From NCBI GenBank assembly GCA_964615335.1, contig CAZTMT010000001.1, positions 642-64,641 of the forward strand: 64,000 nucleotides of DNA. Reading direction: 5' to 3'. This document shows, piece by piece, positions 1 to 11,400 of the stretch. Below the pieces are notes generated by a model, which was given only the letters and a program-made list of their open reading frames with translations, did no database searches and was not told where the DNA came from. Positions within the stretch are counted from its first letter, which is position 1. Each line of letters begins with the position of its first letter. Both the position numbers and the translations under genes were made by a program. Source of the DNA: an uncultured Clostridia bacterium (GTDB taxonomy: Bacteria; Acidobacteriota; Blastocatellia; HR10).

Positions 1-711
1 GCCGCCGTTTCCGTTGCCCGTGGCGTGGGCCTCGATGAACTCCACCGACTGCACGAACATCCCCGCCGAGCCGCAGTAGGGGTCGTAGACCCGCTCGCGG
101 AACGGCTCCAGCATCTCGACGAGCAGGCGCACCACACACCGGGGCGTGTAGAACTCGCCGCCCTTCTTGCCCTCGGCACTGGCGAAATGCGCAAGGAAGT
201 ACTCGTAGACGCGGCCGAGGACGTCTTTGGCCCGGGCGTCGGCATCACCCACGCGGATATTGGTAATGAGGTCGATCAGCTGCCCGAAGCGCTGCTTGTC
301 CAGAGCCGGCCGGGCGTAGTCCTTGGGGAGGACGCCCTTTAGAGAGGGGTTGTCCCGCTCCACTGCCTCCATCGCCTCGTCCACGATCTGACCGATGGTG
401 GGCTGGCGGGCGTTCTGCCGGAGCCGCTCCCAGCGGGCTTCGGGCGGCACCCAGAAGACGTTCGCGGCCCGGTACTTGTCAGGGTCCTCCGGATCGGCGT
501 AGGGCTCCTGCTCCAGCCGCTTGCGGTGCTCCTCGAAGGCGTCGGAGATGTACTTCAGGAAGATGAGGCCCAGCACCACGTGCTTGTACTCCGCCGCGTC
601 CATCGAGCCGCGCAGGGCGTCCGCCATGCGCCCGAGCTCCGCTTCGTAGCCGATAGTCGCATCAGCTCTGTTCGCGGGTGGGCTGCTGTTCGGACTCTTG
701 TCTCTTGGCAT
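1..711 (-). CDS. hsdM: Type I restriction-modification DNA methyltransferase subunit HsdM (N6-adenine), 3' end cut by window edge
   Basis: Minus-strand translation reads [10 protein letters not shown]...[24 protein letters not shown]...[53 protein letters not shown], with the FYTP and DPxCGSxG AdoMet-MTase motifs typical of HsdM. ATG at 709-711 is preceded by GAGGT. It is absent from the ORF track because it runs off the window. Confidence 0.8.
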
Positions 712-882
712 GGTTGTCCTACCTCATGGCTCGCCTTCACGCCTCGCATATTATAATTCTAAGCCATTGTCGCGTGAAGGGGGGATGGACGATACCTCAC
801 GGGTATTTGACATGCGGTTCGCCCTTCTGATATGGTTAGGGCGCACTGTGGAGTTTGAGGTCGTGGGGAAGGAGAAGGCGAG

Positions 883-3036: not shown

Positions 3037-4544
3037 CTTCCCCCTCCGGTGGCGAGGTAGAGGATGCGCTCGTCGGTCGCCTCTTCACGTCGCAGTTCTC
3101 CGACGATTCTTCCTCGATGCATGACGAGGACACGATCGGCCAGGCGCCGGATCTCCTCCAGCTCCGAAGAGACCAGAAGAATGGCCGCTCCCTGCGCAGC
3201 CAGGCGCCGGATCAGCTCGTAAATCTCCATCTTCGATCCGACATCAATGCCGCGCGTGGGCTCATCCAGCAAGAAGACGCGCGGATTCAGAGAGAGCCAG
3301 CGGGCCAGGACGACCTTCTGCTGATTCCCTCCGCTCAGCAGTCCGACCGGATGATCGGGATGAGGCGTCTTCACGTGAAGTTCGCTGAGCAGGCGCCCGA
3401 TGATTTGCTCTTCCGCGCGCCGGTTCACCCACAGGCCTAGGCGCGCCCATCGCCTCTGAGCGGCGAGCACAATGTTCACGCGCACCGAGGCGTTGAGGAT
3501 GAGCCCCTTCGCTTTCCGATCCTCGGTCACCAGAGCCAGGCCGTGGCGCACAGCGTCTTCGGGCGTCCGAAGGACTACCGGGCGCCCATCGAGGAAGATC
3601 GTCCCCGACACGTTCTCGTGCGCGCCGAAGAGAGCCTCCAGCAGTTCCGTCCGTCCCGCTCCGACCACGCCCGCCAGGCCCACGATCTCCCCTCGATGCA
3701 GAGTGAAGGTGATGTCGTAGAACTTTCCGGGAACCGTCAGTCTTTCGACGCGGAGCACGGGCTCGCCCGTCGCCCCGGATGTGCGTTCGGGAAAATACTC
3801 CTTCAGCTCTCGGCCGACCATGGCGCGCACCAGTTCCTCGGGGCTGGTCTCGCCAATAGGTTTGGTCAGAATGCGCCGGCCATCGCGCAGGACGGTCACG
3901 CGATCGGCCACCTGATAGATCTCCTTCATCCGATGCGTGATGTAGACGATGCCTATGCCTCGCGCTTTCAATCGCGCGAGCGTCTGGAAGAGGCGTTCCG
4001 CTTCGCGTTCGGAGAGGGGGGATGTCGGCTCGTCCAAAATGAGAAGCTCGGCTTCGGCTGCCAGAGCCCGAGCGATCTCCACAAGCTGCTGCTCGGCTAC
4101 GCTCAACTCGCTCACCGGACGCTTCGGATCCACAGCGTGGCCAAGCTCCTCAAGCAACAAACGGGCGCGTTCGTATATTTCGCTCCAGTGCACCCAGGAG
4201 AGGAGCATGCGTCGACTCGGAAGGTGCCCGAGAAAGATGTTCTCCCCCACACTCAACGAGGGCACAAGCGTCAGCTCCTGATGCACCATACGAATGCCCA
4301 GGCGGTGCGCGTCGCGCGGACTGCGCAATCTCACCGGTCGCCCTTTCCAGAGGATGCGCCCGTGATCGGCCAAATGGACCCCTGTCGCGATTTTCATGAG
4401 CGTGGACTTCCCCGCGCCATTCTCCCCGATGAGCGCATGGACTTCGCCCGGCTGCACGTCGAAGTCCACGTCATCTAAGGCGACAATCCCCCCGAACGTT
4501 TTCCTCACACCTTCCAGGTGAAGCAGAGCCTGAGGGTGCGTCAT
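3033..4544 (-). CDS. Sugar ABC transporter ATP-binding protein with two fused ABC domains (RbsA/MglA/IatA-like)
   Basis: Two Walker A sites (GENGAGKST and a second P-loop region), LSGGQQQ signatures, duplicated ABC cassette. The track ORF starts further upstream; I place the start at the internal Met (MTHPQALLHLEGVRKTF). Confidence 0.8.
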   Translation of the reverse strand: MTHPQALLHLEGVRKTFGGIVALDDVDFDVQPGEVHALIGENGAGKSTLMKIATGVHLADHGRILWKGRPVRLRSPRDAHRLGIRMVHQELTLVPSLSVGENIFLGHLPSRRMLLSWVHWSEIYERARLLLEELGHAVDPKRPVSELSVAEQQLVEIARALAAEAELLILDEPTSPLSEREAERLFQTLARLKARGIGIVYITHRMKEIYQVADRVTVLRDGRRILTKPIGETSPEELVRAMVGRELKEYFPERTSGATGEPVLRVERLTVPGKFYDITFTLHRGEIVGLAGVVGAGRTELLEALFGAHENVSGTIFLDGRPVVLRTPEDAVRHGLALVTEDRKAKGLILNASVRVNIVLAAQRRWARLGLWVNRRAEEQIIGRLLSELHVKTPHPDHPVGLLSGGNQQKVVLARWLSLNPRVFLLDEPTRGIDVGSKMEIYELIRRLAAQGAAILLVSSELEEIRRLADRVLVMHRGRIVGELRREEATDERILYLATGGGR

Positions 4545-4605
4545 AGTGTTCTGAGATTTGATGCGACGGGCCTCCGGAAAGACAGCGGGTGGGCGCGGCA
4601 CAGGT

Positions 4606-5997
4606 TCACGGCGCGGGAGGGGGGGACTCCCCTTCCGCCTCGGGAGGAGGAGAGATCTCCGTCGGAGGAATCGCCCGCCCATCGAGCACCTGCCAGACGC
4701 TCAGGCGCTGGGCCAGGCGCAGAGCTTCATCCGTGATACTCTCGCCCGCGACGACGGGAACCGTCGAAAGGCCAAGTTGCGCGAGCAACAGCGCCCGTCG
4801 AGCCGCCCGTTCGACATCGGAGAGGCCGATCCCCCAGGAGACTTCGACGACCAAATAGAGCTCGCTTCCCGTCTCCAGATGGCGTCCCCGTATAACGAGA
4901 TCCGTCTGGATGATCTCATCGGCCTCCGAATCGCTCAATCGCCCTTCCTCCACAGCGCGATCCAACAGAGCATCCAGTTCTTCGCTCGAAAGGACATGGA
5001 TCCTTCGGGCGAGGCGGCGGAAGTAAGCCGGGGCGTGACGCTCATATTGATGCTGCAGGTGAAATCCTTTCAGGCGCCCGACATCCTGACTTATCGCATC
5101 TACTCGTTTCGTCAGCAGATCCACAGTCGAGGTGAGGACGGCAATCTGCTGCTCTGCTCGTTGCTGAGCATGGGCCAAAGCCGCAACTTCTTCGCTTAAA
5201 GTCGCCATGGCCTCTTCCAGCCGAGCGACGCGTTTTTCTACCTGGCGTTGAGCTTCGGCCAAAGCCGCGACGGTCTCTTCCAAGCGAGCCAGTCGCTCCT
5301 CGGCATGCCGTTGAGCTTCAATCAGGGCTGCGACGATCTCTTCCAGGCGAGCCAAACGCTCTTCGGCTCGGGCCAGGCGCTCCTGCATCTGGCGCTGGGA
5401 CTCAGCCAAAGCCGCGACAGCTTCTTCCAAGCGAGCCAGTCGCTCCTCGGCATGCCGTTGAGCTTCAATCAGGGCTGCGACGATCTCTTCCAGGCGAGCC
5501 AAACGCTCTTCGGCTCGGGCGACACGCTCCTCGGTTCGAAGCTGGGCTTCAGCCAAGGCAGTGACAGCTTCTTCCAGTCGTGAGATGCGTTCCTCCGTTC
5601 GCTGCTGGGCCTCGGCCAAAGCGGTGACGGCCTCTTCCAACCGGGTGACGCGCTCTTCTGTCCTCCGCTGGGCTTCGGCCAGAACTGTGACAGCCTCTTC
5701 GAGCCGGGCGACGCGCTCTTCCAATCGCGTGACGCGTTCTTCCGTCCGCCGTTGAGCCTCAGCCAAGACGGTCACACTCTCCTGCACCTGCTGTTGAACC
5801 CGGATCAAGGATTTGATCGCTTCGCTCAATTCCCGGACAAGGGGCGGCAGAGACAAAAGCTCCTCCGTCAGCAACAGCCGTCGCAGCTCTTCGCGCCACT
5901 CCGGATGTTGCTCCAGGAGTCGGACCAGGTCGCGAAACTCCGCATCCGTGAGCGCCATACCGCTTCCAATTATCGAAGCATCCCCCCTCTTCGTCAA
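4606..5997 (-). CDS. Coiled-coil repeat protein with C-terminal PD-(D/E)xK-like (DUF3782-like) domain
   Basis: Residues ~80-300 are tandem 22-aa ([LV]EEAV[TA]ALAEAQ[RQ]RTEER[VIL][TA]RL) and 49-aa coiled-coil repeats. The C-terminus (EADEIIQTDLVIRGR...ELYLVVEVSWGIGLSDVERAARRA) fits the D...(D/E)xK topology with Ser in place of Lys. It is embedded co-directionally in the catabolic operon. Confidence 0.7.
   Translation of the reverse strand: MTKRGDASIIGSGMALTDAEFRDLVRLLEQHPEWREELRRLLLTEELLSLPPLVRELSEAIKSLIRVQQQVQESVTVLAEAQRRTEERVTRLEERVARLEEAVTVLAEAQRRTEERVTRLEEAVTALAEAQQRTEERISRLEEAVTALAEAQLRTEERVARAEERLARLEEIVAALIEAQRHAEERLARLEEAVAALAESQRQMQERLARAEERLARLEEIVAALIEAQRHAEERLARLEETVAALAEAQRQVEKRVARLEEAMATLSEEVAALAHAQQRAEQQIAVLTSTVDLLTKRVDAISQDVGRLKGFHLQHQYERHAPAYFRRLARRIHVLSSEELDALLDRAVEEGRLSDSEADEIIQTDLVIRGRHLETGSELYLVVEVSWGIGLSDVERAARRALLLAQLGLSTVPVVAGESITDEALRLAQRLSVWQVLDGRAIPPTEISPPPEAEGESPPPAP
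5277..5520. repeat. Intragenic tandem duplication: two 100% identical 97-bp copies (5277-5373 and 5424-5520), 147-bp period, superimposed on a 66-bp coiled-coil periodicity
   Basis: Direct comparison of the sequence lines shows ttccaagcgagccagtcgctcctcggcatgccgttgagcttcaatcagggctgcgacgatctcttccaggcgagccaaacgctcttcggctcgggc twice. Confidence 0.9.
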
Positions 5998-6018
5998 GGG
6001 GGGGATTTCCGCGAGATC

Positions 6019-7041
6019 TCACGGGATGGCGACGACTTTGAGTGCTTCCCCCGCCCGCAGGGCATGAAAACCCTCTTCGATAGCTTCGAGCTTCAGCCGA
6101 TGCGTCACGAGCTTCTCCAGAGGGAGCGATCCGGATTCCAGCACGCGCACGACTTTGGGGAAGGCCGTGCGCTGAATATAGGAGCCGAGAATCGAGATCT
6201 CGTAGCGCGTGAGCCAGTATTGAGTGATCTCTCGCTCGGCGTGAAGGTTCATCCCGAAGAGGATGATGCGCCCGCCGCGCCGCACCACCTGCACGGCTTC
6301 CGGCAGCAGAGTCCCGACAGCTTCCACAACGATGTCGGCGCCCAGGCCCGTGAGCGCCTTGATCTCCTGGGCGATGTCATAAGCTCTCGGGTCCAGCGCG
6401 GCATCCGCGCCCAGGTGTTCGGCCATGCGGCGTCGGAACTCAACGGGTTCGATGACGCATACGGGATAGGCGCCGGCGGCCTTGTAGAGCATCAAGAACA
6501 TGAGTCCGATCGGTCCGCCCCCTAAGATGGCGACGCTCTCCCCAGGGATGAAAGCAGATTTCTCAAATGAGTGAAGCACGCAGGCGAAGGGTTCCGCCAG
6601 AGTCGCGCGATCCAAGGGAACCTGGGGGCTGATCTTATGAAGAGCCCGAGCCGGAGCGACGCTCCATTCCGCGAGACCTCCGTGGCGGAAAATGCCCAGC
6701 GTCGTCATATCCTCGCAGAGGTTCGAGAGGCCGCGCTGGCAATATGCGCACAGGCCGCAGGTGATATTGGGATCAACCACCACGCGATCTCCCGGACTCA
6801 GATGGCGCACACGAGGTCCGACTTCGACGACCGTCGCGACGTACTCGTGGCCGAGAATCGTCCCCGGAGTCGCCGGATGCCCCGGAGGAACGGCGAGGAT
6901 GTGAAGGTCCGTCCCACAGATGCTCGCGCGTTCCACTTTCAAAAGCACTTCGTCCTCGTTCTTCACAGACGGAATGGGGCGCGATTCGATTCCCCATCGC
7001 CCCTCTCCATGAAAGACAACAGCGCGCATGGTCTCACTCAT
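6019..7041 (-). CDS. Zn-dependent medium-chain alcohol/polyol dehydrogenase (sorbitol/threonine dehydrogenase-like)
   Basis: GroES-like N-terminus with CGTDLH and GHEYVATVVEVG, structural-Zn Cys cluster (CGLCAYCQRG), and a Rossmann GGGPIG motif. Confidence 0.8.
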   Translation of the reverse strand: MSETMRAVVFHGEGRWGIESRPIPSVKNEDEVLLKVERASICGTDLHILAVPPGHPATPGTILGHEYVATVVEVGPRVRHLSPGDRVVVDPNITCGLCAYCQRGLSNLCEDMTTLGIFRHGGLAEWSVAPARALHKISPQVPLDRATLAEPFACVLHSFEKSAFIPGESVAILGGGPIGLMFLMLYKAAGAYPVCVIEPVEFRRRMAEHLGADAALDPRAYDIAQEIKALTGLGADIVVEAVGTLLPEAVQVVRRGGRIILFGMNLHAEREITQYWLTRYEISILGSYIQRTAFPKVVRVLESGSLPLEKLVTHRLKLEAIEEGFHALRAGEALKVVAIP

Positions 7042-8399
7042 GGCCAGATCTCCCGCATCTCTCCGATTCGAAGGCGAACCGGTTCCGTTCGAACCGGAAG
7101 GGGGGGATTCGGACGAAACTCCGAATCCAGGAAGAAAACTTTCCGGACATCTCGAATCAGGCAGCCAGCGCGGGCGAGCGTCTCCTCAGCCGCTTCCGCG
7201 AGCGCATCGCATCGGACAAGAAGCCGTTCGATCTGCGACAGACTCGCGCCTTCGGGCAAGGGGATTGTCGTCCGCACATGTCCGTTCCGTTCCAGAGCGA
7301 AGGACGCAAGGCCCAGATTCGAGGTGTACCAGATGGGATTTCCCGCGAGTTTCACGGCGAAGCTCACGCGAGCGTCCCGCAGCTCCGTGGTCGCTTCGAT
7401 ATAGAGATAGCGGCGGGGATCAAGGATGCACTGACCGATGCGAAGAGCTTCGCAGAGCTTTCCCTCTCGCTTCAGCTCCTCGGCCATGAGGCGATAGGTC
7501 CAGGGATTCTGATCCATCGCCTCCTCTCGGGCGACAGCGCTCGCATCGAAGGGGATCGGGCGCAGGGCGAACCGCATCGGCGAGCGCCCTCGATCCGAGA
7601 AGTTGTTGTTATCGGTGAGGACCAGCAGAAGGGGATGATCTCCCTCGCGTCGTCCTCGGAAGCGACGCGTGCGATGGCGCGGGCCTTGATAGCGGGCCTC
7701 TCGCACGCGCCCTTCGGGCGTCAGGCTCACTTCGTATACCCACTCGATGTCGGTCGCTCGCCCCCATCGCGCCATGAGGGCGTTGGTCTCCGTCCCCCCA
7801 TCTTCGTTGCTGAAGACGACGCTATAGCGGATGGTGAGCGTCTTCTGCTCGCGCGCCATCTCGTACCACATGAGGAGAGGGATGTCCGTGAATCGCCCGA
7901 TGCTGTTGGGGCGCGCGTAGAGAATCGGCGCGTGAGCGAGCGGGAGGAATTCCGGATCCTCGCGCCGGACAAAGCGAAGCGCGAAGTCCTCGACATACAC
8001 CGAGGAGACACGCGGGGCCGATCGGGCGCGATCCCAGACGAGGCGGATCGTGTGGCTCCCCGGGCTCATCCTCCCCAGATGCAGGGAATAGCGGAACGAG
8101 ATGTCTCCGGCAAAGAGGATCACGTCCTGGTGATACCGCTCGTTGATGAACACCTGAAGCACGGCGGCTTCGCGCCCTTTCTCTCCCCAGTTCGCTCCCT
8201 CTGCTCTGGCCCGGAGATCCGCCGTGACCTCCGACTCGGCATCCACGCGAACGGAGCGCTCGAAGAGAACCTGCGTCGCGCGGGGAGGAGACGGCGCCTC
8301 TGAAATCCCCCGGATTGGGATTTCCGCCAGGATCATGCCCGCGAGCCCGATCATGAGCAGTGCGCTGGGTCGCCTCTTCCCTTGATGTCGGCGTCTCAT
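7038..8399 (-). CDS. Secreted hypothetical protein (signal peptide, no recognisable family)
   Basis: Hydrophobic N-terminal signal-like segment (ALLMIGLAGMILA). It is ATGA-coupled to the ADH gene and 7 nt from the GH38 stop. I recognise no motif. Confidence 0.55.
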   Translation of the reverse strand: MRRRHQGKRRPSALLMIGLAGMILAEIPIRGISEAPSPPRATQVLFERSVRVDAESEVTADLRARAEGANWGEKGREAAVLQVFINERYHQDVILFAGDISFRYSLHLGRMSPGSHTIRLVWDRARSAPRVSSVYVEDFALRFVRREDPEFLPLAHAPILYARPNSIGRFTDIPLLMWYEMAREQKTLTIRYSVVFSNEDGGTETNALMARWGRATDIEWVYEVSLTPEGRVREARYQGPRHRTRRFRGRREGDHPLLLVLTDNNNFSDRGRSPMRFALRPIPFDASAVAREEAMDQNPWTYRLMAEELKREGKLCEALRIGQCILDPRRYLYIEATTELRDARVSFAVKLAGNPIWYTSNLGLASFALERNGHVRTTIPLPEGASLSQIERLLVRCDALAEAAEETLARAGCLIRDVRKVFFLDSEFRPNPPLPVRTEPVRLRIGEMREIWP

Positions 8400-8405
8400 G
8401 CGCGC

Positions 8406-11400
8406 TCAGAACTCGATCTTCACCGTCTTGATCTCATAAGGACGCGTCGGAACGCTCACCGTGCGTCCGCGGATGGTCAGGGGAGCAATCTCCTTCTCCA
8501 TGAGAGTGACTTCCGTCGCCGCTCTCGGGGGCTTCGGCAGGGAGATGGTCACTTCTGCCGGCTTCCCGGCGAATTCGTAGAAGCGGAGGATCCACGCCTC
8601 GGAGTCCTCGGCTTTCTTCAACGCGGTGAGGATCACCGTGTCCGGGTCCACGCGGAGGAAGGAGTGGACGGGGGGAAGCGATCCGCTGTGCCCGAAGGTC
8701 GGATAGGGGATGAGCGGATAGTTCAGCTCGTATCCCCGGTGAACCGTTCCCGCCTGAATCCAATCGTCCGCGTGCGGATAGAGCGAGTATGTGAAGCGGT
8801 GAATGCCTTCATCGGCATGGGGATCCGGATAGGCCGGCGAGCGCAGAAGCGTCAGGCGCAGGACGTTGTCGCGCACGTCGTAGCCGTATTTGCTGTCGTT
8901 GAGGAGGCTGACCCCGTACGTTCCATCCGAGAGATCCGCCCAGAAGAGAGCGGGGACCTCGAATTTCGCCTGCTCTTCGGGCGTGCGTCGCGTCGTCGGA
9001 CGCTGAATCGAACCGAAGGGGATTTCGAAGGTCGCCTTCGGGCTCCGGACGGAGACGGGAAAGGCGACCTTGAGCAAGATGTGCTTCTCGCGCCAATCCA
9101 CCTCCATGCGACAATCTATGCGCGGGATCTTCGGATAGAGGGTGAGGTCCTGGATGACTGTCGAATTCTGAAACTTCTTCACCACGCGGATCACCGCGCG
9201 GGTGGGTCCCTTCTCCAGGACCCTCACCTCTTCCGCCTGACGCAGCTCCCATTTCTTCTCCTCGAAGTTCGCATCAATATTCCAGGCGTCGTAGACGGAG
9301 GGTTTGTCGTAGAACGTCTGCAGGAGATTGCCGCAGCGCGAGTCATCGAGGACTTCTCGGTGCTGGATCTTGTCGTACAGACTGGTGAGACATCCCGAAC
9401 GCGGGTCCACCGTGACGCGGAAGAATTCGTTCTCCATCGTCAGGCCGGAGACCACAAGCGACGAGCCCGCGGGAGACGGTCGGGCGGTGGGGATGACGCG
9501 AAAGACGACGTATCCCAAAGGAGGGACGTCCTCGGCGATGAAACGAATTCGCACGCGGTTCGTCTGCGGATCGCGCGCGATCACCTCGGAGATGAGACGT
9601 CGGCCTCGGGGATCGCGGACCTCGACGTTTGAGACCGGATCGGGAAATGTGAGCGTCGCCTCAACCAGATCCGTGCGCGCCCAGGAGAGCGGATTGAAGA
9701 CGATGAGCGGGAGGCCCGGCCCTTTCGTCTGAATCCGGTCGGCCAGTTCGCGCACGGCCCCCTCGAGGACCTCGCGACCGATGCGGCGAACCTCGGCGTA
9801 ATCGCGGGCGGCATCTTTGTACACGGCCGCGATGCTGCTGCCGGGAAGAATGTCGTGGAATTGATTGAAGAGCACTTTCTTCCACGCGACATCCAGCTCG
9901 CCGTGCGGATAGGGATGTCCGAACAGGTGCGCCAGTGACGAGAACTTCTCCGCATTGAGGAGAAGGATCTCGCTCTGGCGATTGTTCCGTTTCGTCTCGG
10001 CCTGGCTCGTGTACGTGCCCCGATGGGTCTCCAGATACAGCTCATCGCGCCACACCGGAGGGTTCAATTGCGAAAGTTGTGCGCTCGCGCGCTCGAAGAA
10101 CTCCTGCACCGTGCCGAAGAACAATCTCGGATACAGAGCCTGAGGCGCGCGCCATCGCGCGGCCGTCTCCAGCATGCTCCGCGTGGGTCCTCCTCCGTGA
10201 TCGCCCACGCCGTACAGGTGCATGTACTCGCGGTGGCCTGTCGCCGCCGCGTAGTCGGCCAGATCCGTGGCCATCGGGACGGGCTCGATGGGATTCCCGT
10301 AGTGGTTCGGGAAATAGGTGAGGACGCGACTCCCATCGGGAGCTTCCCACCAGAAGAGCCGATAGGGGAAGCGCGTGACTTCATTCCAGAAGATCTTCTG
10401 GGTGACGAAGAAATCCATCCCCGACTTCTTCAGGATTTGCGGCAGTTGCCAGTTGTAGCCGAACGCGTCCGGATTCCATCCGACGCGCACATCCACGCCG
10501 AATTTCTCCTTGAAATATCGCGTCCCGTGGAGGAATTGGCGAACGAGTGACTCCCCGTGCGGCAGATTCATATCCGATTCGACCCAGACGCCTCCGACGA
10601 TCTCCCATCGCCCCTGGCGGACGCGCTCCCGAATCCGCTCGAAGAGCTTGGGATATTTCTCCTCCATCCAGGCATAGGTTTGAGCCGCTCCGTGCGCGAA
10701 GGTGAACTCCGGGAACTCCTGCATTAACTGAAGGACGGTGGAGAAGGTGTCGCGCACGATCTCCACGGTCTCCGTCCAGGGCCAGAGCCAGGCCAGGTCA
10801 ATATGCGAGTTCCCGACGGCGCGGATGGAGAATTCCCGCAGAAGAGGCAGCAGAGGAGCCAGCGCCTCGCGCGCTTCGCGCAGGGAGCGATCGAAAGAGA
10901 TCTGGTCGCCTCGATCCAGGGCCTCTAGATCCAGCTTGGCCAGAGCCGCATCCAGATGACGTTCCCACTGAGCGCGATCCTCTTTTCGAGTCTTCAGGAG
11001 CTGTTCGATGACCTGGCACTCCTGCAGGAAGGTTCTCGGATCGGGGCGAGACGGAGGGGCTTCGACCTCGAGCTGTCCGGCGCGCACCCACGTGCGTCCG
11101 CCGGGCACATTCGCCCGCACGGCGATCACGAACTCATCGCCCGCCTGTGCGCTCTCGGTCAGGACGATGGGGTCCAGATCGTTCCCTTCGGCTTTCTTCT
11201 CTCCGTTGAAGAAGACGGTGAGATGAACCGGATTCTCCCCTACGATTCGGATGCGCAAGCGGAGCTTCGCTCCGCGAATGTCGTATCCGCCGATCGTCTG
11301 CGGGAGGATCACGCGATATCGGAACCAGGCCGGACCTGTGCTCCACTCTCCCCCGACGGGGAATGAGGCCCAGGTGGAATCATCCACGTTCACGGCCTCG

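What the first reader, a model, noticed from the sequence alone, without database searches (positions are those of the whole stretch)
4606..5997. Coiled-coil repeat / PD-(D/E)xK-like protein with perfect 97-bp intragenic duplication inserted in the transporter operon
The protein has ~10 copies of a 22-aa heptad-like repeat, including two 100% identical 97-bp DNA segments (147-bp period), so the gene is prone to slippage or recombination (copy-number variation). The C-terminal domain matches the nuclease-like D...E-V-(K->S) topology. It sits between the ADH and the ABC ATPase with 21- and 61-bp gaps, displacing the expected position of a substrate-binding protein. Similar coiled-coil plus DUF3782-like proteins occur as multi-copy families in thermophilic bacteria; their function is unknown.
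Basis: partly seen in the sequence, partly recalled or inferred. Interest (0 to 1): 0.5.

Follow-up and report, generated by a model that had tools for sequence, protein, structure and literature searches.

The report
Nuclease on a length-variable coiled-coil stalk
This gene encodes an uncharacterised protein with a small helical cap, a very long coiled-coil rod and a nuclease-fold head, and the rod differs in length between related bacteria only in whole seven-residue steps; it has its own promoter and is not part of the neighbouring sugar transporter.

Summary
The gene is most likely 4606..5958 (-), 450 aa. The TTG at 5997 is the -35 box of a conserved promoter, not a start codon. The exact duplicate is 98 bp (5276-5373 = 5423-5520), period 147 bp.

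The canonical Asp and Glu are 98-99% conserved. The canonical Lys is a 99%-conserved Ser, and Arg residues on the next helix are 98-100% conserved.

The family has about 3,000 clusters at 50% identity and matches no Pfam, NCBIfam, PADLOC or PHROG model. Cap-to-head distance runs from 36 to 267 aa and is 1 mod 7 in 164 of 195 members.

Eleven syntenic orthologues with both ends assembled carry the gene between ADH and the ABC ATPase. Ten are intact, with ten different stalk lengths that all differ by multiples of 7 aa. One is a decayed pseudogene.

The gene does not displace the substrate-binding protein. No partner gene recurs, and the function is untested. The likeliest reading is a coiled-coil-dimerised accessory DNA nuclease.

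The parts
5969..5997 (-). Sigma-70-type promoter-like site: -35 TTGACG (5997-5992), 17-nt spacer, -10 GATAAT (5974-5969). The ATG follows 10 nt after the -10, so the mRNA would be leaderless or nearly so.
   Evidence: Consensus scan scored 10 of 12. CTTGAC and ATAATTG are invariant in 8 orthologous loci while the spacer and flanks vary. Sequence checked.
4606..5958 (-). Most likely CDS, 450 aa plus stop: cap, coiled-coil stalk, PD-(D/E)xK head and Pro/Glu-rich tail.
   Evidence: ORF. Start inferred from homologue N-termini and the promoter. dN/dS against the HR10 orthologue is 0.11 for the C-terminal part and 0.25 for the N-terminal part.
5842..5958 (-). N-terminal cap, residues 1-39 (MALTDAEFRDLVRLLEQHPEWREELRRLLLTEELLSLPP). 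In a modelled homologue this region forms three short helices.
   Evidence: Family alignments A4 and A6 have P19 and W21 invariant and E20, R22, L25, R26, R27 and P38 at 90% or more. In the AF2 model of homologue P0106 the helices are 5-17, 19-29 and 32-35. No Pfam, NCBIfam, PADLOC or PHROG match.
5080..5841 (-). Coiled-coil stalk, residues 40-293: 254 aa, 36 heptads without a register break. Position a is V/I/L (Q in the AQRRTEE-type heptads, roughly every third or fourth), d is L (T or A in those heptads), e is mostly E, f is E, g is R or A.
   Evidence: Heptad tabulation. TRF periods of 21, 63 and 147 bp. Repeat families. In the model of short homologue P0106 a single helix (37-104) ends one residue before the first helix of the nuclease domain.
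5212..5505 (-). Two tandem 147-bp (49-aa, 7-heptad) super-units, 5212-5358 and 5359-5505, 86% identical overall.
   Evidence: the repeat finder family D2. TRF period 147, score 517. Translations.
5276..5373 (.). First copy of the 98-bp exact duplicate.
   Evidence: Longest exact direct repeat in the gene. Identity re-checked.
5423..5520 (.). Second copy of the 98-bp exact duplicate, offset 147 bp.
4657..5079 (-). C-terminal PD-(D/E)xK (restriction-endonuclease-like) domain, residues 294-434. Conserved positions: D353 (4900-4902), E372 (4843-4845), S374 (4837-4839), D381, R384 and R388.
4609..4656 (-). Pro/Glu-rich C-terminal tail (ISPPPEAEGESPPPAP). A similar tail is seen in the syntenic orthologue clade.
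   Evidence: Translations. It lies outside the family profile.

Best explanation
The gene encodes a long-stalked member of a large, unannotated bacterial protein family. Each member has a roughly 39-aa three-helix N-terminal cap and a continuous heptad coiled coil. The coil leads, one residue after it ends, into the first helix of a C-terminal NucS-like PD-(D/E)xK domain.

Proposed mechanism (inferred, not shown):
- The stalk forms a parallel, in-register homodimer. The evidence is the residue pattern: a = V/I/L, d = L, g = R, e = E.
- This places two nuclease heads side by side at one end and the two caps at the other. At about 1.5 A per residue the rod would be about 38 nm here, against about 10 nm for the median family member.
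- The heads bind DNA and probably cleave it with a divalent metal held by D353 and E372.
- The missing Lys may be replaced by the near-invariant S374 and by R384 or R388 on the second core helix. A basic residue moved to that helix has a precedent in Pa4535 (PMC3424549).

Transcription and role:
- The gene is transcribed from its own conserved promoter as a near-leaderless mRNA.
- It has no functional link to the flanking ADH and ABC transporter genes.
- It behaves as a dispensable accessory gene. It is under purifying selection where intact and has decayed in one relative.

Stalk length changes quickly by slipped-strand mispairing or unequal recombination between the 63-, 84- and 147-bp repeats. 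Only changes of whole heptads (21 bp) survive, because anything else breaks the coiled coil.
For: Shown:
- Fold.
- Near-invariant D, E-x-S, D, R and R across 324 members.
- Architecture of a full-length homologue, model pLDDT 90.2.
- 36 unbroken heptads and their a/d/e/g composition.
- Family size: 3,067 representatives at E<=1e-3 and 1,750 at E<=1e-10. The domain lies at or near the C-terminus in nearly all of the 150 listed.
- Cap-to-head distance of 36-267 aa, equal to 1 mod 7 in 164 of 195 members. Binomial P is 2e-105 ignoring relatedness.
- Exact intragenic repeats up to 288 bp, with periods mostly multiples of 21 bp, across the family.
- Ten intact syntenic orthologues with ten stalk lengths, all differing by multiples of 7 aa.
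- dN/dS of 0.11 for the head and 0.25 for the cap against HR10.
- Conserved -35 and -10 hexamers in 8 loci.
- No recurrent neighbour among 101 flanking ORFs. The flanking genes of three further loci were also unrelated to one another.
- A frameshifted, repeat-deleted copy in one lineage.

Established knowledge: the canonical Asp lies at the N-terminus of core strand 2 and Glu-x-Lys on strand 3, and Lys can migrate to the second core helix (PMC3424549).
Against: - The catalytic Lys is absent throughout the family.
- In this orthologue clade the 95%-conserved Glu of the first core helix is Gln. A Glu sits one turn later at E306, but whether it compensates is untested.
- No activity, substrate or oligomeric state has been measured.
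- A trimer or an antiparallel dimer is not excluded. Related crenarchaeal stalk constructs crystallised as trimers (PMC4786415).
- No multimer model could be run.
- The biological role has no direct evidence.
- Part of the within-species length variation could be in-phase collapse of tandem repeats by short-read assemblers. L006 breaks and L007 is gapped inside the array, and L074 is garbled there.
Confidence: 0.5

Rival explanations
1. The nuclease fold is catalytically dead. The protein would be a structural DNA-binding or tethering rod, or a scaffold, in which the head only binds DNA or another ligand and the stalk acts as a spacer.
For: The Lys of (D/E)xK is Ser in 99% of members. This clade has also lost the first-helix Glu, which is Q302. 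Extreme tolerance of stalk length fits a spacer or tether. Non-catalytic PD-(D/E)xK folds are known (my knowledge: ERCC1, EME1).
Against: The two canonical acidic residues and three more charged residues (D381, R384, R388) are 98-100% conserved. That is more than a binding-only surface usually needs. Precedents exist for Lys replacement or migration in active enzymes (PMC3424549).
Confidence: 0.25
2. It is a selfish or defence-type stand-alone nuclease gene, either a free-standing homing-like endonuclease or a single-gene anti-phage effector. It would spread horizontally into intergenic sites, and stalk variation would be driven by conflict.
For: Patchy distribution over many phyla and several copies in some MAGs. 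Unrelated neighbours and short intergenic gaps. Its own promoter. Decay to a pseudogene in one lineage. Many fragmented copies in databases.
Against: No PADLOC or PHROG match and no close viral structural relatives. The 101 neighbours show no enrichment of defence or mobile-element genes. In the window's clade the gene keeps one position across relatives whose synonymous sites are near saturation (dS 1.58 against HR10) and has host-like GC. No empty site was found.
Confidence: 0.15
3. It is a functional component of the flanking sugar-uptake and catabolism cluster, for example a stand-in for the substrate-binding protein.
For: It lies on the same strand as, and close to, the ADH and ABC ATPase genes in every orthologous locus. 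An ABC transporter is also nearby in L070/L072.
Against: It has no signal peptide, transmembrane segment or SBP fold. The head is a nuclease fold. It has its own promoter. Relatives keep a normal Peripla_BP SBP beyond the radical-SAM gene. Family neighbours are otherwise unrelated, with ABC_tran in only 2 of 101 flanking ORFs. The cluster is intact in the lineage where the gene has decayed.
Confidence: 0.03
4. The exact 98-bp duplicate and the long stalk are assembly artefacts, meaning a mis-assembled tandem array.
For: Related assemblies break or are gapped inside this array (L006, L007; L074). Collapse or expansion by an assembler would also stay in phase with the period.
Against: The 98-bp exact run is shorter than common read lengths. 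The two 147-bp units differ at 14% of positions, which anchors them. The ORF is intact and in register. Independent assemblies give long arrays too, 527 aa on a 1.25-Mb contig and 429-435 aa elsewhere. Divergent family members have arrays with non-identical repeats.
Confidence: 0.07

Closest known systems
NucS / EndoMS (archaeal and actinobacterial mismatch and branched-DNA endonuclease), C-terminal RecB-like domain
   Different: There is no sequence-level relationship (no Pfam hit even at E<=10; no PDB sequence hit). The NucS N-terminal DNA-binding and dimerisation domain is replaced by a helical cap and a coiled coil. Lys is replaced by Ser.
DUF1626 (PF07788, COG5493) PD-(D/E)xK proteins with DUF3782 coiled-coil stalks (Hartmann et al. 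2016, PMC4786415; Steczkiewicz et al. 2012, PMC3424549)
   Same: The overall plan is the same: an N-terminal coiled-coil stalk plus a C-terminal PD-(D/E)xK domain. Distribution is patchy and includes thermophiles, and function is unknown. Linking DUF1626 to the family Hartmann et al. describe is my inference. The bacterial stalks described by Hartmann et al. also lack nonads, as here.
   Different: Neither PF07788 nor DUF3782 models match this protein. The crenarchaeal stalks contain nonad beta-layers, whereas this one is pure heptads. Whether the two families are remote homologues was not testable here.
RmuC (bacterial DNA recombination protein)
   Same: Coiled-coil region followed by a C-terminal restriction-endonuclease-like domain, encoded by a stand-alone gene (my knowledge).
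   Different: No RmuC Pfam or NCBIfam match. RmuC has an N-terminal membrane anchor and a canonical motif (my knowledge). Heptad-quantised length polymorphism is not known for it.
Pa4535 (PDB 1y0k) type active-site variant, PD-EXX-K
   Same: It is a precedent for the basic residue leaving strand 3 and sitting on the second core helix (PMC3424549). Here R384 and R388 lie on that helix and are 98-100% conserved.
   Different: Here the candidate is Arg rather than Lys, and a conserved Ser occupies the old Lys position.
Length-variable repeat stalks of surface proteins (streptococcal M proteins, trimeric autotransporter adhesin stalks)
   Same: Intragenic tandem repeats in coiled-coil register give strain-to-strain length variation (my knowledge).
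   Different: Those are secreted surface fibres under immune or host selection. This protein has no signal peptide or transmembrane segment in its sequence and carries a nuclease fold.

Membership tests
PD-(D/E)xK (restriction-endonuclease-like) superfamily | alpha-beta-beta-beta-alpha-beta core fold | tested here: met
PD-(D/E)xK (restriction-endonuclease-like) superfamily | Asp at the start of core strand 2 and Asp or Glu on core strand 3 | tested here: met
   D353 precedes the model strand at 73-78 and E372 lies in the strand at 85-96. They are 99% and 98% conserved in 324 members.
PD-(D/E)xK (restriction-endonuclease-like) superfamily | Lys two residues after the strand-3 acid, (D/E)xK | tested here: not met
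   The position is Ser in 322 of 324 members. Possible substitutes R384 and R388 lie on the second core helix. Their geometry was not checked.
PD-(D/E)xK (restriction-endonuclease-like) superfamily | Metal-dependent phosphodiesterase activity | not testable with these tools
   Needs biochemistry.
NucS / EndoMS | Sequence match to the family (Pfam NucS model, or PDB sequences 2vld and 5gkj) | tested here: not met
   The C-terminal domain gave 0 Pfam families at E<=10. phmmer and hmmsearch against PDB sequences found no nuclease.
NucS / EndoMS | N-terminal DNA-binding and dimerisation domain | tested here: not met
   The N-terminal part is three short helices plus one long helix.
DUF3782 (Pfam coiled-coil entry) | Match to the Pfam HMM | tested here: not met
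   It is absent from the complete hit lists for the 49-aa unit and for the cap plus first repeats (9 families each). It is also absent from the top 25 for the whole protein and two other pieces. In the longer lists the hits below rank 25 were not shown.
DUF1626 / PF07788 (COG5493) | Match to the Pfam HMM | tested here: not met
   No Pfam family matched the C-terminal domain or any of 35 family members apart from coiled-coil noise.
Vac_Fusion (PF02346), XhlA (PF10779), DUF1664 (PF07889) | Score above the Pfam gathering cut-off | tested here: inconclusive
   Scores are 38.9 against a cut-off of 24, 39.4 against 34.7, and 37.2 against 34.6. The matches are 33-72-residue stretches inside the repeats, alongside dozens of other coiled-coil families. 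I read them as compositional matches, not homology.
Canonical heptad coiled coil | Unbroken 7-residue periodicity with hydrophobic a and d positions | tested here: met
   36 heptads. LIVMF occupies 73% of position a and 75% of position d, and 11% or less of the other five positions. Family-wide, stalk length is 1 mod 7 in 84% of members.
Known anti-phage defence proteins (PADLOC) and phage protein families (PHROGs) | HMM match | tested here: not met
   The head and a short homologue gave 0 PADLOC families. Only weak coiled-coil LmuB noise appeared for a full-length homologue. No PHROG reached E below 0.1.

The most novel reading that the evidence does not exclude
Stalk length may be an adaptive, fast-evolving molecular ruler. 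Under this reading, heptad-quantised length polymorphism, seen even between near-identical strains, tunes the distance between an N-terminal anchoring or sensing cap and a pair of non-canonical (E-x-S) nuclease heads. That would define a new kind of single-protein DNA-processing or conflict system found mainly in thermophile and other uncultured lineages.
Probability: 0.12. Interest if true: 0.7.

Novelty: new variant of a known kind. Interest (0 to 1): 0.42.

Why it matters
A family of about 3,000 clusters at 50% identity has no model in Pfam, NCBIfam, PADLOC or PHROGs. Its coiled coil even collects spurious above-threshold Pfam hits such as Vac_Fusion and XhlA. This work gives it an architecture, a fold and a candidate active site.

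Three features make it a clean natural system for studying how coiled-coil length evolves and what it does for an enzyme:
- The stalk runs from about 5 to 38 heptads.
- Its length changes only in whole heptads.
- It differs between contigs of what look like the same species.

The work also corrects the annotation in three ways: the start codon, the existence of a separate promoter, and the lack of any link to the transporter.

If the nuclease is active with Ser and Arg in place of Lys, that adds an active-site variant to the PD-(D/E)xK superfamily.

Tried and rejected
- Whole-protein Pfam and NCBIfam scans returned only coiled-coil noise such as SMC, Rad50, Vac_Fusion and XhlA. I rejected these as homology.
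- Sequence searches of the head and of family profiles against PDB found only coiled coils and one chance hit.
- PADLOC, PHROGs and NCBIfam scans of the separate domains found nothing.
- A search for a paralogue inside the 64-kb window found none.
- The afdb50 fold library was unavailable.
- BFVD gave only generic weak restriction-enzyme-fold hits.
- Exact look-up of the window protein in the public collection found it is not on record.
- A profile search with the 41-aa cap was meant to find other C-terminal partners. It returned only ORFs of 72 aa or less, which are split or truncated genes, so it says nothing about domain shuffling.
- I searched for a conserved partner gene by clustering ORFs within 4 kb of the 65 non-duplicate loci then fetched, and by a Pfam and PADLOC census of 101 flanking ORFs. 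No family recurred beyond 3 of 101. The ABC ATPase cluster (11 loci, 4 of them the syntenic group) looked like what one would expect by chance for so common a superfamily; this was not tested.
- Rfam found nothing in 4000-6600.
- The terminator scan found none.
- Literature searches found no description of this family beyond the general remarks in PMC4786415 and PMC3424549.
Full report
**1. What is in the sequence**

The minus strand carries an ORF at 4606..5997 (463 aa from a TTG). The opposite-strand ORFs over it (4558..5199, 5248..5583, 5561..5755, 5752..6525) are the usual high-GC shadows. All homology support is for the minus-strand frame.

Homologues begin 'M[AS]FT..DF.DL..LLEQHPEWR', which corresponds to the ATG at 5958.

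The TTG at 5997 is the first base of a promoter-like TTGACG-17 nt-GATAAT site. In an alignment of eight orthologous intergenic regions, CTTGAC and ATAATTG are invariant while the spacer and flanks vary. The ATG follows the -10 box by 10 nt.

The gene is therefore most likely 4606..5958, 450 aa. It would be transcribed from its own promoter as a leaderless or nearly leaderless mRNA. The promoter is inferred from conservation, not shown experimentally.

**2. The repeats**

- The longest exact direct repeat is 98 bp, 5276-5373 = 5423-5520, offset 147 bp.
- TRF and the repeat finder give periods of 21, 63 and 147 bp.
- At protein level the units are 21 aa (LAEAQRRTEERVTRLEEAVTA) or 28 aa. A 28 + 21 unit makes the 49-aa super-unit, which is duplicated at 5212-5358 and 5359-5505.
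- Residues 40-293 form 36 heptads with no register break.
- Position a is V/I/L, with Q in the AQRRTEE-type heptads that recur roughly every third or fourth heptad. Position d is L, with T or A in those heptads. Position e is mostly E, f is almost always E, and g is R or A.
- By standard coiled-coil rules this pattern favours a parallel, in-register dimer with g-e' salt bridges. This is inference. A trimer or an antiparallel arrangement is not excluded.

**3. The C-terminal domain**

No curated HMM library recognises it. Pfam gives nothing at E<=10. NCBIfam, PADLOC and PHROGs give nothing meaningful. PDB sequences give nothing.

An AlphaFold2 model built with 34 homologues has pLDDT 90.6.

- then SdaI, NgoMIV, BspD6I, AspBHI, Can2, NucC, Shedu, HamA, Hjc and others

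Conservation across 324 family members, with residue numbers in the 450-aa protein:

| Position | Conservation |
|---|---|
| Asp before core strand 2 (D353) | 99% |
| Glu on strand 3 (E372) | 98% |
| Ser at the canonical Lys position (S374) | 99% |
| D381 on the next helix | 98% |
| R384 on the next helix | 98% |
| R388 on the next helix | 100% |

Steczkiewicz et al. describe the canonical positions. They also describe a case, Pa4535, in which the Lys has moved to the second core helix (PMC3424549). That makes an active E-x-S...R site plausible but unproven.

One caveat applies to this clade. The Glu of the first core helix is 95% conserved in the family but is Gln here (Q302). A Glu lies one turn later at E306.

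**4. The family**

- A profile of the head alone finds 3,067 representatives of 50%-identity clusters at E<=1e-3, 1,750 at E<=1e-10 and 343 at E<=1e-30. In nearly all of the 150 listed the domain lies at or near the C-terminus.
- Among 269 fetched members the median length is 239 aa, the 95th percentile is 329 and the maximum is 415. The 450-aa window protein is extreme.
- A model of a 240-aa member (pLDDT 90.2) shows three short N-terminal helices and a single 68-residue helix. That helix ends one residue before the first helix of the nuclease domain.
- In species-representative genomes the family appears in MAGs of Thermoflexales, Thermomicrobia, Acetothermia, Latescibacterota, Binatia, Armatimonadota, Nitrospinota and others. 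It also appears in the isolate Thermalbibacter longus.
- There are up to three loci per MAG.

**5. Stalk length is quantised**

I measured the distance from the conserved Pro of the cap ('LP') to the conserved Gly at the entry of the head ('LKG') in 195 intact members. It ranges from 36 to 267 residues, with a median of 64. It equals 1 mod 7 in 164 members and 5 mod 7 in another 20. The binomial P against a uniform distribution is 2e-105, ignoring relatedness. The window value is 260, or 37 heptads, the second longest.

Across the family the coils contain long exact intragenic repeats, up to 288 bp. Their periods are mostly multiples of 21 bp: 21, 42, 63, 84, 105, 126, 147, 210 and 252.

The simplest reading has two parts:
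- Tandem duplication and deletion between repeats happens often.
- Only whole-heptad changes keep the coiled coil intact.

This does not by itself prove that the relative orientation of cap and head matters.

**6. Orthologues and strain variation**

The gene order is GH38 mannosidase, a 453-aa protein, ADH, this gene, ABC ATPase, then permease. It is shared at about 76% nucleotide identity with Bacterium HR10, Bacterium HR08, another MAG and several metagenome contigs.

A metagenome scan seeded with the ADH protein found ten more loci with ADH at 78-80% amino-acid identity. All ten carry the gene's N-terminal cap in the same place. Nine also contain the head and the ABC ATPase gene. L074 ends inside the repeats.

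Lengths of the ten intact orthologues:

| Locus | Length (aa) | Pro-to-Gly distance (aa) |
|---|---|---|
| L075 | 527 | 337 |
| window | 450 | 260 |
| L083 | 435 | 246 |
| L005 (HR10) | 429 | 239 |
| L077 | 385 | 204 |
| L076 | 380 | 190 |
| L078 | 365 | 176 |
| L081 | 343 | 162 |
| L080 | 322 | 141 |
| L079 | 295 | 106 |

All ten Pro-to-Gly distances differ from one another by multiples of 7.

- L075, L076 and HR10 have near-identical N- and C-terminal protein sequences, judged by eye from the printed translations, and differ by one to three 49-aa units.
- L078 and L079 have identical termini in those translations and differ by 70 aa.
- Exact repeat runs are specific to each lineage: 98 bp in the window, 146 bp in HR10, 266 bp in HR08 and 332 bp in L075. 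Synonymous divergence between the window and HR10 is near saturation (dS 1.58).
- The arrays are therefore being remodelled much faster than the species diverge.

Caveat: short-read assemblers can collapse tandem arrays in phase. Several contigs break or are gapped inside the array (L006, L007, L074). Part of the within-species variation needs confirmation with long reads.

**7. Selection and decay**

Between the window and HR10, dN/dS is 0.11 for the head and 0.25 for the cap, so the gene is functional in both.

In one related organism (L001-L004 and L082) several things have happened:
- The whole repeat region is deleted.
- The frame is shifted.
- Conserved residues are degraded, for example HPEWR to HLEWG and WQV to WGG.

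The flanking genes there are intact. The gene is therefore dispensable in that lineage.

Databases also hold many short N-terminal fragments and split genes. Some may be sequencing errors.

**8. Relation to the neighbours**

- ADH, the ABC ATPase, the BPD_transp_2 permease and the radical-SAM protein are confirmed by Pfam.
- In the relatives a Peripla_BP substrate-binding protein is encoded just beyond the divergent radical-SAM gene. It is 88-89% identical among them. The coiled-coil gene therefore does not occupy the SBP's place.
- In this window that position (1-714, minus strand) encodes the start of a type I restriction-modification methylase, HsdM_N plus N6_Mtase.
- No SBP orthologue lies within the 64 kb. 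There is only a 26%-identical paralogue at 32211-33029.
- Elsewhere the family's neighbours are unrelated housekeeping and metabolic genes.
- Among 101 flanking ORFs no Pfam family occurs more than three times. Defence or mobile-element hits are rare.
- GC content matches the neighbours at 0.62, with GC3 somewhat lower at 0.65 against 0.72-0.78.

**9. Most likely mechanism**

Shown: the three-part architecture, the nuclease fold, the conserved acidic and basic residues, the quantised and fast-changing stalk, independent promoter elements, purifying selection, and the lack of a partner gene.

Inferred:
- The stalk forms a parallel homodimeric rod, about 38 nm here.
- The rod pairs two heads for metal-dependent DNA binding and cleavage.
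- Ser and Arg replace the canonical Lys.
- The role is accessory, some form of genome maintenance or conflict.

I give this 0.5. The main rival is a catalytically dead DNA-binding or tethering rod (0.25). A selfish or defence nuclease is a more specific version of the role (0.15). A transporter function (0.03) and an assembly artefact (0.07) are unlikely.

**10. Comparison with what is known**

- The head works like NucS/EndoMS, but the protein is not a member. It has no sequence match, a different N-terminal part, and no Lys.
- The overall plan resembles the coiled-coil-stalked PD-(D/E)xK proteins noted by Hartmann et al. (DUF3782; PMC4786415). It also resembles the DUF1626/COG5493 entry of Steczkiewicz et al. 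(PMC3424549), and RmuC.
- None of those HMMs matches.
- I rate it a new variant of a known kind. It is a distinct, unmodelled family with an E-x-S active-site variant and heptad-quantised stalk hypervariability. The function is untested.

Noticed in passing
window 1-714 (-): This is the start of a type I restriction-modification methylase (HsdM_N plus N6_Mtase). It lies where four related genomes carry the transporter's Peripla_BP substrate-binding protein gene. No SBP orthologue occurs anywhere in the 64 kb, only a 26%-identical paralogue at 32211-33029. This suggests an R-M insertion or replacement next to the radical-SAM gene.
   Followed up: partly
window 7038-8399 (-): A 453-aa protein lies between the GH38 mannosidase and ADH. 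It overlaps the ADH start by 4 bp, has no Pfam match, and is conserved at 66-74% in the syntenic loci that contain it.
   Followed up: no
L001-L004 at about 7880-8612, and L082 at 5596-6325: The orthologue in one related organism is a pseudogene. The repeat array is deleted, the frame is shifted and conserved residues are degraded, while the flanking ADH and ABC genes are intact. The 203-aa remnant is identical across 13 contigs from different samples.
   Followed up: yes
window 5080-5841 (-): Pfam Vac_Fusion (38.9 bits against a cut-off of 24), XhlA (39.4 against 34.7) and DUF1664 (37.2 against 34.6) exceed their gathering thresholds on the coiled coil alone. Such hits could mislead automatic annotation of this family. 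JGI names for some members (EzrA, FtsB, TolA-binding protein, phasin) look like the same kind of coiled-coil-driven label.
   Followed up: partly
window 5080-5841 (-) and family-wide: The motif 'AEAQ(R/Q)RTE(E/Q)R' puts Gln at position a and Thr at position d, forming a polar core layer. It recurs every 21 or 28 residues here. It is also found at the cap-stalk junction in members from several other loci (visible). A conserved polar core layer could bind an ion or set register or oligomer state.
   Followed up: no
L033, L043, L045, L049, L055, L056, L067 (Thermoflexus and related MAGs): These paralogues, up to three per MAG, use a different stalk repeat of 32 aa (96 bp; 'AEAQRRHYEEFAAHRQEFLAYRAETDRRFAEL'). 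Exact runs reach 288 bp. The period is not a multiple of 7, so their coils may have a different periodicity.
   Followed up: no
window 5980-6006: An inverted repeat, ATCCCCCC ... GGGGGGAT with an 11-nt loop, spans the -35 hexamer of the gene's promoter just downstream of the ADH stop. The arm sequences are not conserved in the orthologous loci. It could be an ADH terminator remnant or a regulatory hairpin.
   Followed up: no
L072 726-1408; L073 3001-3738: Family genes here are split into two or three adjacent ORFs by frameshifts inside or near the stalk. The collection holds 136 short proteins of 72 aa or less that carry only the cap. Some sit on long contigs, so not all are contig-end truncations. 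Sequencing error and real decay cannot be told apart.
   Followed up: partly
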